Origin: the human T2T-CHM13v2.0 reference genome, Homo sapiens
Direction: 5' to 3' (one strand)
Length of the DNA stretch: 64,000 nt
NCBI RefSeq assembly: GCF_009914755.1
Contig: NC_060931.1
The notes beneath the pieces are model-generated. The model worked only from the letters and a program-made list of their open reading frames with translations. It was not told the DNA's origin and made no database searches. The position numbers and the translations under genes are program-made. Shown here piece after piece: positions 13,694 to 19,367 of this stretch. Every line of letters starts with the position of its first letter. Positions within the stretch are counted from its first letter, which is position 1.

Positions 13694-16600
13694 CTTTTTT
13701 CTTTTTTCTTTTTATTATACTTTACATTCTGGGATACATGTGCAGAATGTGTAAGTTTGTTACATAGGTATACATGTGCCATGGTGGTTTGCTGCACCCA
13801 TCAACCCGTCATCTACATTAGGTATTTCTCCTCATGCTACACCTCCCCTTTCCACCCACCCCCTGAGAGGCCCCAGTGTGTGATGTTTCCCTCCCTGTGC
13901 CCATATGTTCCCATTGTTCAACTCCCACTTACCAATGAGAGCATGTGGTGTTTGGTTTTCTGTCCCTGTGTTAGTTTGCTGAGAATGATGGTTTCCAGTT
14001 TCATTCATGTCCCTGCAAAGAACATGAACTCAGCTTTTTTATGGCTGCATAGTATTCCATGGTGTATATGTGCCACATTTTCTTTATCCAGTCTAACACT
14101 GATGGGCATTTGGGTTGGTTCCAAGTCTTTGCTATTGTGAATAGTGCCATAATAAACAAACATGTGCATGTGTCTTTATAGTAGAATTATTTATAATCCT
14201 TTGGGAATATATCCAGTAATGGGATTGCTGGGTTAAATGGTATTTCTAGTTCTACATCCTTGAGGAATCACCACACTGTCTTCCACAATGGTTGAACGAA
14301 TTTACACTCCAACCAACAGTGTAAAAGTGTTTGTATTTCTCCACAGCCTCTCCAATATCTGTTGTTTCCTGACTTTTTAATGATCACCACTCTAACTGGC
14401 ATGAGATGGTATCTCATTGTGGTTTTGATTTGCATTTCTCTAATGACCAGTGATGATGAGCTTTTTTCATGTTTCTTGCCCACATAAATGTCTTCTTTCA
14501 AAAAGTGTCTGTTCATATCCTTTGCCCATTTCTTGATGGGGTTGTTTGTTTTTTTCTTGTAAATCTGTTTAAGTTCTTTGTGGATTCTGGATATTAGCCC
14601 TTTGTCAGATGGATAGATTGCAAAAATTTTCTCCCATGCTGTAGGCTGCCTGTTCACTCTGATTATAGTTTCTTTTGCTGTGCAGAAGCTCTTTAGTTTA
14701 ATTAGATCCCATTTGTCAATTTTGGCTTTTGTTGCCATTGCTTTTGGTGTTTCAGTCATGAAGTCTTTTCCCTTGCCTATGTCCTGAATGGTATTGCCTA
14801 GGTTTTCTTCTAGGATTTTTATGGTTTTAGGTCTTACATTTAAATCTTTAATCCATCTTGAGTTAATTTTTGTATAAGGTGTAAGTAAGGGGTTCAGTTT
14901 CAGTTTTCTGCATGTGGCTAGTGAGTTTTCCCAGCACCATTTATTAAATAGGGAATCCTTTCTCCATTGCTTGTTTTCATCAGGCTTGTCAAAAAACAGA
15001 TGATTGTAGATGTGTGGTGTTATTTCTGAGGCCTCTGTTCTGTTCCATTGGTCTATATATCTGTTTTGGTACCAGTTTTGGTAGCATGGTTTTGGTACCA
15101 TGCTATTTTGGTTACTGTAGCTTTGTCATATAGTTTGAAGTCAGGTAGCATGATGCCTCCAGCTTTGTTCTTTTTGCTTAGGATTGTCTTGCCTATATAG
15201 GCTCTTTTTGGTTCCATATGAAATTTAAAGTAGTTTTTTTCTAATTCTGCGAAGAATGTCAGTGGGAGCTTGAGGAGAATAGCATTGAATCTATAGATTA
15301 CTTTGGGTAGTATGGCCATTTTCACAGTCTTGATTCTTCCTATCTACGAGCATGGAATGTTCTTCCATTTGTTTGTGTCTTCTTTTATTTCGTTGAGCAG
15401 TGGTTTGTAGTTCTCCTTGAAGAGGTCCTTCACATCCCTTGTAAGTTGTGTTCCTAGGTATTTTATTCTCTTTGTAGCAAATGGGAATGGGAATTTGGTC
15501 ATGATTTAGTTCTCTGTTTGTCTATTATTGGTGTATAGGAATGCTTGTCATTTTTGCACATTGATATTTTTATCCTGAGACTTTGCTGAAGTTGCTTATC
15601 AGCTTAAGGAGTTTTTAGGCTGAGACGATGGGGTTTTCTAAATATACAACCATGTCATCTGCAAACAGAGACAATTTGACTTCCTCTCTTCCTATCTGAA
15701 TATGCTTTATTTCTTTCTCTTGCCTGATTGCCCTGGCCAGAACTTCCAATACTGTGTTGAATAGGAGTGATGAGAGAGGGCATCCTTGTCTTGTGTCAGT
15801 TTTCTAAGGGAATGCTTCCAGCTTTTGCTCATTCAGTATGATACTGGCTGTGGTTTTGTCATAAATAGCTCTTGTTATTTTGAGATAAGTTCCATCAATA
15901 CCTAGCTTATTGAGAGATTTTAGAATGAAGGTGTGTTGAATTTTATCGAAGGCCTTTTTTGCGTCTATTGAGATTATCATGTGGTTTTTGTCATTGGTTC
16001 TGTTTATGTGATGGATTACATTTATTGATTTGAATATGTTGAACTAGCCTTGCATCCCAGAGGTGAAGCCGACTTGATCATGGTAGATAAGCTTTTTGAT
16101 GTGCTGCTGGATTTGGTTTGCCAGTATTTTATTGAGGATTTTTTGCATCAATGTTCATCAGGAATATTGGCCTGAAATTTTCTTTTTTTGTTGTGTCTCT
16201 GCCAGGCTTTGGTATCAGGATGATGCTGGCCTCATAAAATGAGTTTGGGAGGAGTCCCTCTTTTTCTATTGTTTGGAATAGTTTTGGAAGGAATGGTACC
16301 AGCTCCTCTTTGTACCTCTGGTAGAATTCAGCTCTGAATCCGTCTGGTTCTGGACTTTATTTATTTGGTAGGCTATTAAGTACCGCCTCAATTTCAGACT
16401 TGTTATTGGTCTATTCAGGAATTGGACTTCTTTCTTGGGTTAGTCTTGGGAGGGTGTATGTGTTCAGGAATTTATCCAATTCTTCTAAATTTTCTAGTTT
16501 ATTTGCATAGAGGTGTTTATAGTATTCTCTGTGGGTAGTTTGTATTTCTGTGGGATCAGTGGTGATCTCCCCTTTATCATTTTTTATTGTGTCTATTTGA

Positions 16601-19367
16601 TTCTTCTCTTTTCTTCTTTATTAGTCTGGCTAGCGGTCTATCTATCTTGCTAATCTTTTTTAAAAAACCAGCTCTTGGATTCATTGATTTTTTTGAAGGG
16701 TTTTTTGTGTCTCTATCTCCTTCAACTCTGCTCTGATCTTAGTTATTTCTTGTCTTCTGCCAGCTTTTCAATTTGTTTGCTCTTGCTTCTCTAGTTCTTT
16801 TAATTGTGATGTTAGGGTGTTGATTTTAGTTATTTCCCACTTTCTCCTGTGGGCATTTAGTGCTATGAATTTCCCTCTAAACACTGCTTTAACTGTGCCC
16901 CAGAGATTCTGGTATGTTGTGTCTTTGTTCTCACTGGTTTCAAAGAACTTATTTATTTCTGCCTGAATTTCATTATTTACCCAGTAGTAATTAAGGAGTA
17001 GGTTGTTCAGTTTTCATGTAGTTGTGCAGTTTTGAGTAAGTTTCTTAATCCTGAGCTCTAATTTGATTGCACTGTGGTCTGAGAGACTGTTATAATTGCC
17101 TTCCTTTTGCATTTGCTGAGGAGTGTTTTACTTCCAATTATGTGGTCGATTTTAGAATAAGTGCAATGTGGTGCTGAGAAGAATGTATATTCTGTTGATT
17201 TGGGGTGGAGATTTCTGTAGATGTCTGCTGAGTCTGTCCGGCAGACTCTGCCAGAGCAAACAATGACAGAAGTCTGCTGACAGTGACATGGGTATTGTGC
17301 CTGACAGTGTGGCTAGGGGACCGCATGGCTTAGCACCACTGACAAGAGTGCAGCCTCGATAAGCTGGCAACACTTGCATTTATTTAGTCCAGATTTAATG
17401 ACAAAGGCTTGGAGGAAACACAATTTGTGGTTAATTAACATTGTTGACCGCCCCCCCCCCCCCGAATAGAGAGCAGCCCTGTGCGTGCATGATCAAAGGT
17501 TGGTTTCTGGAGACATAACTAAACCAATTTATCTACATAAGTTCCTTTACATTCCCTTGTTATCTACCCTTTGCTCTCAGCTTCCAGATAACAGAATCAG
17601 CTGCCTTCAGCTTCTCTCCCAAAGCTTTTGCAAAATCTCCTGGCCTTCCAAGAAGGTTTGTGTCTTTCCTTATAATTTTTCCCACCACCCTGACCGATCT
17701 TCTACAGATATCTATTAGGTCGGCTTTGTCCAGAGCTGAGTTCAAATCCTGAATATCCTTGTTAATTTTCTGTCTTGTTCATCTAATATTGACAGTGGGG
17801 TGTTAAAGTCTCCCATTATTATTGTGTGGGAGTCTAAGTCTCTTTGTGGGTTTCTAAGAACTTGCTTTATGAATCTGGGTGCTCCTGTGTTGGGTGCATA
17901 TATATTTAGGATAGTTAGCTCTTCTTGTTGCATTGATCCCTTTACCATTATGTAATGGCCTTCTTTGTCTTTTTTGATCTTTGTTGCTTTGAAGTTTGTT
18001 TTATTGGAGACTAGGATTGCAATTCCTGCTCTTTTTTTTTGTTTCTTTGCTTTCCATTTGCTTGGTAAATATTCCTACCTCCCTTTATTTTGAGCCTATG
18101 TGTGTCTTTGCACGTGAGATGGGTCCCCTGAATACAGGACACTGATGAATCTTGACTCTTTATCCAATTTGCCAGCCTGTGCCTTTTAATTGGGGCCTTT
18201 AGCCCATTTACAATTAAGGTTAATATTATTATGTGTGAATTTAATCCTGTCATTATGATGCTAGCTGGTTATTTCGCCCATTAGTTGATGTAGTTTCTTC
18301 ATAGTGTCGATGGTCTTTACATTTTGGTTTGTTTTTCCAGATGCTGGTACTGGTTTTTCTTTTCCCTAGTTAGTGCAGGAGCTCTTGTAAGGCAGGCCTG
18401 GTGGTGACAAAATCTCTCAGCATTTGCTTGTCTATGAAGCGTTTTATTTCTCCTTCACTTACGAAGTTTAGCTTGGCTGGATATGAAACTCTGGGTTGAA
18501 AATTCTTTTCTTTAAGAATGTTGAATATTGGCCCCCACTACCTTTTGGCTTGTAGGGTTTCTGCTGAGAGATCCACTGTTTGTCTGATGGTCTTTCCTAT
18601 GTGGGTAACTAGACCTTTCTCTCTGGCTGCCCTCAAAATGTTTTCCTTTACTTCAACCTTGGTGAATCTGATGATTATGAGTCTTGGGGTTGCCCTTCTC
18701 GAGGAGTATCTTTGTGGTGTTCTCTGTATTTCCTGAATTTGAATGTTGGCCTGTATTGCTAGGTTGGGGAAGTTGTCCTGGATAATACCCTGAAGTGTGT
18801 TTTCCAACTTGGTTCCATTCTCCCTGTCACTTTCAGGTACACCAGTCAAACATAAGTTTGGTCTTTTCACATAGTCCCATATTTCTTGGAGGCTTTGTTA
18901 GTTCCTTTGCATTCTTTTTTCTCTAATCTTGTCTTCGTGCTTTATTTCATTAAGTTGATCTTCAGTCTCTGATATCCTTTCTTCTGCTTGATTGATTTGG
19001 CTATTGATACTTGTGTATGCATCACGAAGTTCTCATGCTGTATTTTTCAGCTTCATCAAGTCATTTACATTCTTCTCTAAACTGGTTATTCTAGTTAGAA
19101 ATTCCTCTAACCTTTTATCAAGGTTCTTAGCTTCTTTGCATTGGATAAGAACATGCTCCTTTAACTCGGAGGAGTTTGTTATTACCCACCTTCTGAAGCC
19201 TACTTCTGTCAATTTGTCAAACTCATTCTCCATCCAATTTTGTTCCCTTGCTGGCGAGGAGTTGTGATCCTCAGTTGGAAATGAAGAAATCACCCACCTC
19301 CTGCATTGGTCTTGCTGGGAGCTGCAGACTGGAGCTGTTCCTATTCAGCCATCTCGCCCGGGAAATC
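13694..19367 (-). mobile_element. L1PA7-like LINE-1 with both termini but spliced-out 5'UTR/ORF1 start (SpIRE 97/976 type); ORFs disrupted
   Basis: L1PA7-like 3'UTR and poly-A; ORF2 and ORF1 peptide fragments; L1 5' terminus aagatggctgaataggaacagctcc-like; 15-bp TSD cttatccaaactctt at 13679-13693 and 19368-19382. Confidence 0.93.
17226..17706 (-). mobile_element. LTR22 solo LTR (HERV-K HML-5 group) inserted in L1 ORF2 EN region
   Basis: Minus strand tgtagaagatcggtcagggtggtgggaaaaattataaggaaagacacaaaccttcttggaagg...ca; TSD gatgtc/gatatc. Confidence 0.85.

What the first reader, a model, noticed from the sequence alone, without database searches (positions are those of the whole stretch)
13694..19367. 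L1PA7-like element retrotransposed from a spliced L1 RNA (SpIRE 97/976 type)
Seen: the element has both termini and an exact 15-bp TSD, yet on the L1 sense strand only 98 nt of 5'UTR (19367-19270, ending ...catttccaactgag) are joined directly to ORF1-internal gatcacaactcctcgccagc (19269 downward). Established: in L1 the sequence ...tttcca(a/t)ctgag|GT is the splice donor at ~nt 97 and ...cctccaaag|ga is the acceptor at ~nt 976 inside ORF1; copies with this join are called SpIREs. Inference: about 1 kb holding most of the sense/antisense promoter and the ORF1 ATG was removed by splicing before integration. The copy was therefore dead on arrival and probably needed full-length ORF1p from another RNA. 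As I recall, described SpIREs are mostly from younger L1PA subfamilies, so an L1PA7-age example may be uncatalogued.
Basis: partly seen in the sequence, partly recalled or inferred. Interest (0 to 1): 0.8.

Follow-up and report, generated by a model that had tools for sequence, protein, structure and literature searches.

The report
Old spliced L1 retrotransposon copy (SpIRE)
This is an ancient, dead L1 copy made from an L1 RNA whose promoter region and ORF1 start had been spliced out, a known kind of element but older than the published examples.

Summary

**The element**
- The L1 lies on the minus strand at 13694-19367.
- It is bounded by the only direct repeat of 14 bp or more in the region, an exact 15-bp target-site duplication.
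- It ends in AATAAA plus an A-rich tail.
- 98 nt of 5'UTR are joined directly to ORF1 at 19270|19269.

**Evidence for splicing**
- In full-length relatives in the same genome, the 98-nt piece is followed by GT in 20 of 22.
- The ORF1 piece is preceded by a pyrimidine tract plus AG in 26 of 27.
- The acceptor AG ends ORF1 codon 22, 66 nt after the ATG. This is the homologue of the published G98U99/A974G975 splice.
- The same join occurs at 28 other unrelated loci.

- About 1.3 kb was removed, not about 1 kb.
- The parent was a long-5'UTR L1PA7/PA8-type element. L1PA7 and L1PA8 could not be told apart here.

**Novelty**
- The copy is absent from the published list of 11 SpIRE97/976, which spans PA2 to PA4-6.
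- I count 29 such junction loci in T2T-CHM13, of which 18 are uncatalogued.
- Only four of 25 scored loci carry an ancestral ORF1 9-nt marker, this one included.

It is a new, old member of a known kind, of modest interest.

The parts
19368..19382 (.). 5' copy of the 15-bp target-site duplication (AAGAGTTTGGATAAG in L1 sense)
   Evidence: exact 15/15 match to 13679-13693. It is the only direct repeat of 14 nt or more in the region.
19270..19367 (-). Exon 1: the first 98 nt of the L1 5'UTR, from the canonical 5' terminus to the splice donor (ends ...CCAACTGAG)
   Evidence: It matches full-length relatives from nt 1-4 at 88-94% identity. 20 of 22 relatives have GT immediately after this point.
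19269..19270 (-). Exon-exon junction (donor G at 19270, first exon-2 base G at 19269)
   Evidence: no intron base is left. The same join occurs at 28 other loci.
18317..19269 (-). ORF1 remnant from codon 23 to the stop. It lacks the ATG and the first 22 codons, is now broken by stops, and its first in-frame ATG is 12 codons after the junction.
   Evidence: Pfam Transposase_22 (E 8e-51) and Tnp_22_dsRBD (E 3e-37).
18254..18316 (-). 63-nt spacer between ORF1 and ORF2
   Evidence: The length equals the 63-bp spacer stated in Larson 2018 (passage).
17707..18253 (-). ORF2 remnant, 5' part (endonuclease region) up to the LTR insertion; 17707-17712 is the left LTR duplication GATATC
17226..17706 (.). 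Solo LTR (481 bp, TG...CA) inserted into the L1 after its arrival; its own orientation was not determined
   Evidence: absent from three relatives at this point and flanked by a 6-bp duplication. In one search, genomic relatives occur as same-strand pairs 4.5-7.8 kb apart.
13717..17225 (-). Rest of ORF2 (reverse transcriptase and C-terminal region, many stops and frameshifts) and the 3'UTR; 17220-17225 is the right LTR duplication GACATC
   Evidence: RVT_1 fragments. The longest open piece is 285 aa.
13694..13716 (-). AATAAA signal and degenerate A-rich tail
13679..13693 (.). 3' copy of the 15-bp target-site duplication

Best explanation
A full-length, long-5'UTR L1 of the L1PA7/PA8 generation was transcribed from its own 5' terminus. 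Before reverse transcription the RNA was spliced from the 5'UTR donor (CTGAG|GT, after nt 98) to the acceptor AG formed by positions 2-3 of ORF1 codon 22. This removed about 1.3 kb: the rest of the 5'UTR with its promoter elements, plus the ORF1 ATG and 22 codons. The spliced RNA was copied to its very 5' end and integrated by ordinary endonuclease-dependent, target-primed reverse transcription. That left a 15-bp duplication and an A tail.

Shown: the anatomy, the exact GT...AG boundaries in relatives, the recurrence of the join at other loci, and the absence of this copy from the published list.

Inferred: that the RNA could not supply functional ORF1p and was mobilised with ORF1p from another L1; that the new copy was promoter-poor and non-autonomous from the start; and an age of roughly 30 million years. 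Later a solo LTR inserted into ORF2 and both ORFs decayed.
For: **Hallmarks**
- The exact 15-bp TSD is the only long direct repeat in the region.
- The element has AATAAA plus an A tail.
- The nick site reads TCTT/T, or CTTT/A if the ambiguous A is counted. This resembles the sites listed for published SpIREs.

**Boundaries**
- 20 of 22 full-length relatives have GT right after the 98-nt piece.
- 26 of 27 have AG right before GATCAC..., preceded by a pyrimidine tract.
- The ATG lies exactly 66 nt upstream of the acceptor in 19 of 27 relatives. This matches Larson's description of SpIRE97/976.

**5' end**
- The GATTTCCCGGGC... terminus is a templated variant. It is found at 65 loci at 3 or fewer mismatches, against 0 for the control.
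- Six full-length carriers match exon 1 from nt 1-4.

**Recurrence**
- 29 junction loci in all.
- Upstream flanks share only interspersed repeats.

**Size**
- 5,187 bp plus a 1,273-1,356 nt intron gives about 6.46-6.54 kb.
- This fits RepeatMasker's L1PA7 (6,469) and L1PA8 (6,487) coordinate lengths and not L1PA6 (6,154), as seen in the rows of the Pinson 2022 Table S1.

**Experiments in print**
- An L1.3 construct with this deletion makes only truncated ORF1p.
- It does not retrotranspose in cis.
- It is weakly rescued by ORF1p, but not ORF2p, supplied in trans.
Against: - No orthologous primate locus could be examined, so a deletion after insertion is not excluded by direct evidence at this locus.
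- The two boundaries share 3 nt (AG|G). The breakpoints can therefore be drawn in four equivalent ways, and a microhomology deletion would look the same at a single locus.
- The need for ORF1p in trans rests on an L1.3 construct, not on this lineage.
- Subfamily and age rest on distances, on RepeatMasker model lengths read from a published table, and on a recalled substitution rate.
Confidence: 0.93

Rival explanations
1. A full-length L1 inserted here and later lost about 1.3 kb through a genomic deletion (end joining at the 3-nt AGG microhomology).
For: The boundaries share AG|G, so this locus alone cannot distinguish the two routes. No orthologue was checked.
Against: The same join occurs at 28 other independent loci from at least three L1 generations, with 0 hits for reversed-pattern controls. 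The ends fall exactly on GT and AG behind a pyrimidine tract. Three nucleotides of homology would not direct recurrent deletions to one pair of sites.
Confidence: 0.03
2. The reverse transcriptase jumped within or between L1 templates during integration. It skipped from ORF1 to the 5' end of an L1 RNA and produced an internally deleted copy without splicing.
For: L1 reverse transcriptase is known to switch templates (established knowledge, recalled; chimeric insertions are the subject of the preprint seen).
Against: Template jumps have no reason to land on GT...AG, or to repeat the same pair of sites at 29 loci.
Confidence: 0.02
3. The copy is second-generation. An already integrated SpIRE was transcribed from a neighbouring or residual promoter and copied again, so no new splicing event lies behind this locus.
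For: A published case shows a SpIRE regaining mobility through a host gene promoter (passage of the 2025 preprint). Three other loci carry the same join with the ancestral ORF1 marker.
Against: Over 5 kb this copy is no closer to the chr5 SpIRE than to two full-length elements. Quartet site counts are 31, 29 and 21, and pairwise distances are 10.8-12.3%. The chr5 copy ranks 14th of 17 among its neighbours. Exon 1 starts at the canonical L1 terminus with no 5' transduced sequence.
Confidence: 0.07

Closest known systems
SpIRE97/976, the 5'UTR/ORF1 spliced integrated retrotransposed element (Belancio 2006, not held here; Larson et al. 2018, PMC5860796)
   Same: It uses the same donor (GT after the ...CTGAG that ends about nt 97-98) and the same acceptor (AG of ORF1 Lys22). 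The same 66 nt of ORF1 are lost, including the ATG. TSD, A tail and an endonuclease-type nick site are present. Its length of 5,187 bp falls inside the published 5,064-5,232 range for 10 of the 11 entries.
   Different: The parent is a long-5'UTR L1PA7/PA8-type element, so the intron was about 1.3 kb instead of 878 nt. Exon 2 begins GATCACAAC rather than GAACGCAG. ORF1 carries the ancestral 9-nt (tripeptide) insert. The copy is about twice as diverged as the catalogued ones, and it is not in the published list (PA2 to PA4-6).
SpIRE97/622 (intra-5'UTR SpIRE, Larson 2018)
   Same: Same donor and same route (a spliced L1 RNA, retrotransposed).
   Different: Its acceptor lies inside the 5'UTR, so ORF1 stays intact. 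It was reported only for L1PA1-L1PA6 and none was found in L1PA7 or older.
Processed pseudogenes
   Same: An intron-less copy of a spliced RNA, inserted by the L1 machinery acting in trans, with a TSD and an A tail.
   Different: Here the template is L1's own RNA, and ORF2p may still have acted in cis. Only ORF1p has to come from elsewhere.

Membership tests
SpIRE97/976 (Larson 2018) | The upstream boundary of the gap is the 5'UTR splice donor G98U99 | tested here: met
   Exon 1 is 98 nt and ends ...CCAACTGAG. GT follows in 20 of 22 full-length relatives. Loci mapped to Larson's entries show the same exon end.
SpIRE97/976 (Larson 2018) | The downstream boundary is the ORF1 acceptor A974G975, i.e. 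positions 2-3 of Lys22, deleting 66 nt of ORF1 with the ATG | tested here: met
   AG precedes exon 2 in 26 of 27 relatives. The ATG lies exactly 66 nt upstream in 19 of 27, with the codon reading ...CCA AAG|GAT. The definition was read.
SpIRE97/976 (Larson 2018) | Hallmarks of endonuclease-dependent target-primed reverse transcription (TSD, poly(A), nick-site motif) | tested here: met
   15-bp exact TSD, AATAAA plus A tail, nick site TCTT/T or CTTT/A read from the sequence.
SpIRE97/976 (Larson 2018) | Truncated, non-functional ORF1p; mobilisation only with ORF1p in trans | not testable with these tools
   Shown for an L1.3 construct. Here only the loss of the ATG is seen, with the next in-frame ATG 12 codons after the junction.
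SpIRE97/976 (Larson 2018) | Listed among the 11 catalogued copies | tested here: not met
   S1 Table sheet 4 has no chromosome 7 entry. No row of the table is labelled PA7 or starts near the expected position. This is a matter of cataloguing, not of kind.
L1PA7 (as opposed to L1PA6 and younger) | Long 5'UTR (RepeatMasker model about 6.47 kb against 6.15 kb) and the ancestral tripeptide before the ORF1 coiled coil | tested here: met
   5,187 bp plus an intron of about 1.3 kb gives about 6.5 kb. The 9-nt insert is present, and PMC7449397 states it occurs in ancestral L1Pa5, L1Pa6 and L1Pa7. Primers for PA1-6 fit the relatives' 5'UTRs poorly, while PA7 and PA8 primers fit.
L1PA7 (as opposed to L1PA8) | Subfamily-diagnostic positions, mainly at the 3' end | tested here: inconclusive
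   No consensus library was available. Published PA7 and PA8 primers both match the same relatives. Divergence scaled against one pair of PA4-labelled copies favours PA7 only weakly.

The most novel reading that the evidence does not exclude
The donor-98 to ORF1-Lys22 splice was already yielding integrated copies in the L1PA7/PA8 era, roughly 30 million years ago. That is earlier than the 27-million-year span given for SpIREs in print. The class is also about 2.6 times larger than catalogued: 29 junction loci in T2T-CHM13 against 11. If so, L1 RNAs lacking their own ORF1 start were rescued in trans again and again across at least four L1 generations.
Probability: 0.75. Interest if true: 0.4.

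Novelty: new member of a known kind. Interest (0 to 1): 0.3.

Why it matters
- **Time depth.** It pushes a known L1 splicing accident back to the L1PA7/PA8 generation. The donor/acceptor pair therefore worked across a 5'UTR about 430 nt longer than today's.
- **Catalogue bias.** The published SpIRE census used probes from a modern L1 at over 95% identity, so it misses the older members.
- **Annotation.** Copies like this are easily mis-scored as 'full-length' or as two fragments.
- **L1 biology.** Each such copy records an event in which ORF1p had to come from another RNA. A fuller count therefore bears on how strict cis-preference has been over time.
- **This locus.** The copy itself has no sign of present function.

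Tried and rejected
- **Untemplated 5' nucleotides.** The first 7-9 nt did not align with one group of relatives. The idea was dropped when the same terminus turned up at 65 loci and in six full-length elements.
- **Common origin with the chr5 SpIRE.** Rejected from the quartet counts and distance ranks.
- **Segmental duplication among junction loci.** Rejected: the flanks share only short repeats at 67-91% identity.
- **Naming the subfamily.**
  - Khan 2006 and Belancio 2006/2008 are not held.
  - The ORF1 alignment archive of PMC7449397 could not be read, and its other supplement was only a reply to reviewers.
  - This copy is not in the Pinson Table S1 rows I searched by estimated hg19 position.
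  - Attempts to find my full-length relatives there by guessed coordinates failed.
  - The PA7 and PA8 primers did not discriminate.
- **Tree tips as ages.** Terminal branches for the labelled PA2-PA4 copies are inflated because they have few close relatives in the tree. I therefore used pairwise distances on a cleaned set.
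Full report
**What is there**

Read on the minus strand, the element runs from 19367 to 13694.
- It is bounded by AAGAGTTTGGATAAG at 19382-19368 and 13693-13679. A repeat search of 13600-19450 found this pair and no other direct repeat of 14 nt or more.
- The 3' end carries AATAAA (13716-13711) and a degenerate A tail of about 20 nt.
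- On the primed strand the target reads ...CTCTT|TAACAC, a nick site of the TCTT/T type. If the ambiguous A is counted it is CTTT/A. Either resembles the sites tabulated for published copies.
- Pfam finds the two L1 ORF1 domains and fragments of a reverse transcriptase in the open pieces.
- ORF1's stop and the ORF2 ATG are 63 nt apart, the spacer length given by Larson et al..
- Both reading frames are now broken many times. The longest sense piece is 285 aa.

**The join**

Ninety-eight nucleotides of 5'UTR end in ...CATTTCCAACTGAG at 19270. They are followed at 19269 by GATCACAACTCC..., which reads on as ORF1.

I searched the window's own assembly with the junction region and aligned the loci returned.
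- Sixteen loci carried both the 98-nt piece and the ORF1 piece, separated by 988-1453 nt.
- GT followed the 98-nt piece in 15 of those 16.
- AG preceded the ORF1 piece in 21 of 21 loci that had it, behind a pyrimidine run (...cctcttctcctccaaag).

Six more full-length elements, chosen for sharing this copy's 5' terminus, gave GT in 5 of 6, AG in 5 of 6, and introns of 1295-1356 nt, with one of 989 nt.

Taken together:
- GT is present in 20 of 22 relatives.
- AG is present in 26 of 27.
- 18 of 22 introns lie between 1273 and 1356 nt.

The piece removed was therefore about 1.3 kb, not about 1 kb.

**Which splice it is**

In the relatives the ORF1 ATG lies exactly 66 nt upstream of the acceptor in 19 of 27. 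The rest are shifted by small indels or have a mutated ATG. The acceptor AG is the end of the 22nd codon, AAG.

Larson et al. 2018 define SpIRE97/976 by the donor G98U99 and the acceptor A974G975. [quoted passage not shown] The window's join is the exact homologue.

No in-frame ATG lies in exon 1. The first one after the join is 12 codons downstream, which corresponds to the first of the two downstream AUGs that Larson et al. discuss.

**The 5' end**

The first 7-9 nt (GGATTTCCC...) did not align with one group of relatives, and I first took them for added nucleotides. That was wrong.
- A pattern for this terminus found 65 loci at 3 or fewer mismatches, and none for the reversed control.
- Six full-length carriers match exon 1 from nt 1-4 at 88-94% identity.

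The cDNA therefore reached the normal start of its parent RNA.

**Splicing rather than deletion**

The two boundaries share AG|G. This locus alone cannot exclude a microhomology deletion, and no primate orthologue could be examined here. The case rests on recurrence.
- A 27-nt junction pattern gave 40 hits, against 0 for the reversed control.
- I inspected 32 of them in sequence: 25 read on into ORF1 and 7 continue into the intron.
- Of the remaining 8, two carry the junction string and reappear in a longer junction pattern. Six show the unspliced string.
- The longer pattern gave 29 hits with 0 control. Of these, 28 bear the junction, and one looks by eye like an unspliced acceptor that I did not fetch. 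Two of the 28 were new.
- The union is 29 loci.
- The upstream flanks of the 23 loci tested share only short interspersed repeats, so these are separate insertions.

**Relation to the catalogue**

Larson's S1 Table lists 11 SpIRE97/976: PA2 (2), PA3 (4), PA4 (4) and one PA4-PA6. None is on chromosome 7. No row of the whole table is labelled PA7 or starts near the position I estimated for this copy, an estimate that rests on a recalled hg38 gene coordinate.

By Larson's account, ten of the 11 are the copies found earlier by Belancio and colleagues. I could not open those papers.

All 11 can be matched one-to-one to T2T hits, by chromosome and by offsets that are consistent within a chromosome. 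One match is confirmed by its noted AAAAT-repeat flank. This mapping is my inference. It leaves 18 junction loci uncatalogued.

The reason is probably method. The published probes were made from L1.3 and required over 95% identity.

Three literature searches listed no wider SpIRE census. Of their hits I read passages from only two papers on this point.

**How old, and which subfamily**

Four lines of evidence bear on this.
- **Tree.** In a tree of the 1.45 kb after the junction, this copy sits in a star-like cluster with the long-intron full-length elements. It lies outside the clade holding all seven sequenced catalogue members.
- **Distances.** I dropped nine rows: eight with insertions or poor alignment and one duplicate locus. 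On the cleaned set the old cluster averages 10.3% pairwise (18 sequences), against 5.7% among six catalogue members.
- **Five-kilobase comparison.** Against the chr5 SpIRE and two full-length elements, pairwise distances are 10.8-12.3%, or 9.8-11.3% outside CpG contexts. This copy has 202 private differences. By the three-point formula that is about 5% on its own lineage. At a recalled rate of 0.17% per million years this gives roughly 30 million years.
- **Markers.**
  - ORF1 carries a 9-nt insert before the coiled coil. PMC7449397 says this insert is present in ancestral L1Pa5, L1Pa6 and L1Pa7 and lost in later families. Only 4 of 25 junction loci scored have it. Six of the seven catalogue members examined lack it, and one could not be scored.
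  - Adding the intron to the 5,187-bp element gives about 6.46-6.54 kb. In the RepeatMasker rows of Pinson et al. 2022 Table S1, L1PA7 coordinates run to 6,469, L1PA8 to 6,487 and L1PA6 to 6,154.
  - Their PA7 and PA8 primers both fit my full-length relatives, and their PA1-6 primers fit poorly.

The parent was therefore L1PA7 or L1PA8. Scaling against one pair of PA4-labelled copies leans towards L1PA7, but I could not settle it.

**Independent origin**

This copy and the chr5 SpIRE, which has its own 12-bp duplication, are not close kin.
- The three quartet partitions get 31, 29 and 21 sites.
- The chr5 copy ranks 14th of 17 among this copy's neighbours.

**Consequences**

The following are inferred by homology. 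Larson et al. showed that an L1.3 construct with this deletion makes only N-terminally truncated ORF1p. It does not retrotranspose in cis even under a strong promoter. It is weakly rescued by ORF1p, but not ORF2p, supplied in trans. The same loss here implies a copy that needed foreign ORF1p to arrive and could not found a lineage.

**Later history**

A 481-bp TG...CA element with a 6-bp duplication (GATATC/GACATC) interrupts ORF2 at 17226-17706. It is absent at that point from three relatives. Its genomic relatives often occur as same-strand pairs 4.5-7.8 kb apart, as expected of proviral LTRs. The name LTR22 was not tested.

**Verdict**

This is a genuine SpIRE of the 97/976 type. It is a known kind, but an uncatalogued member and one of the two copies whose exon 2 starts GATCACAAC, the form seen in the long-5'UTR (PA7/PA8-type) full-length relatives.

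Noticed in passing
G000 loci L031-L043, L047-L049, L067, L068 (T2T contigs C1, C2, C3, C4, C5, C6, C8, C9, C15, C23): Besides the window's copy, 17 further loci carry the 97/976-type junction but map to none of the 11 published entries. Most have a TTCCAAGATGG- or GGAGCCAAGATGG-type 5' terminus and lack the 9-nt ORF1 insert, so they look like L1PA4-PA6-age copies.
   Followed up: partly
L037/L064 (C5:87.68 Mb), L068 (C9:15.69 Mb), L047 (C15:72.96 Mb): Three other junction loci carry the ancestral 9-nt ORF1 insert. The chr5 copy has a 12-bp TSD of its own. The ends of the chr9 and chr15 copies were not fetched.
   Followed up: partly
window 17226-17706: A solo LTR (481 bp, TG...CA, 6-bp duplication with one mismatch) is nested in the L1. 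It contains a run of 12 G. Genomic relatives are only 74-85% identical to it and often occur in same-strand pairs 4.5-7.8 kb apart. The family name was not tested.
   Followed up: partly
L010-L030 versus L069-L074 and window 19355-19367: Long-5'UTR L1 elements come with two different first 12 nt or so: GGTGGCTGGCAAG... and GATTCCCGGGCAAG.... The window's copy has the second. Whether this split follows the L1PA7/PA8 boundary is unknown.
   Followed up: partly
L032 (C1:172.59 Mb): A junction-bearing copy keeps only about 9-13 nt of exon 1 and abuts sense-strand L1 ORF2-like sequence. It appears to be a 5'-truncated spliced copy nested in another L1.
   Followed up: no
window 13665-13671 and 19361-19366: GATTTC occurs both at the element's 5' start and 8 nt beyond the 3' TSD. 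Since the 5' start proved to be templated, this is probably coincidence.
   Followed up: yes
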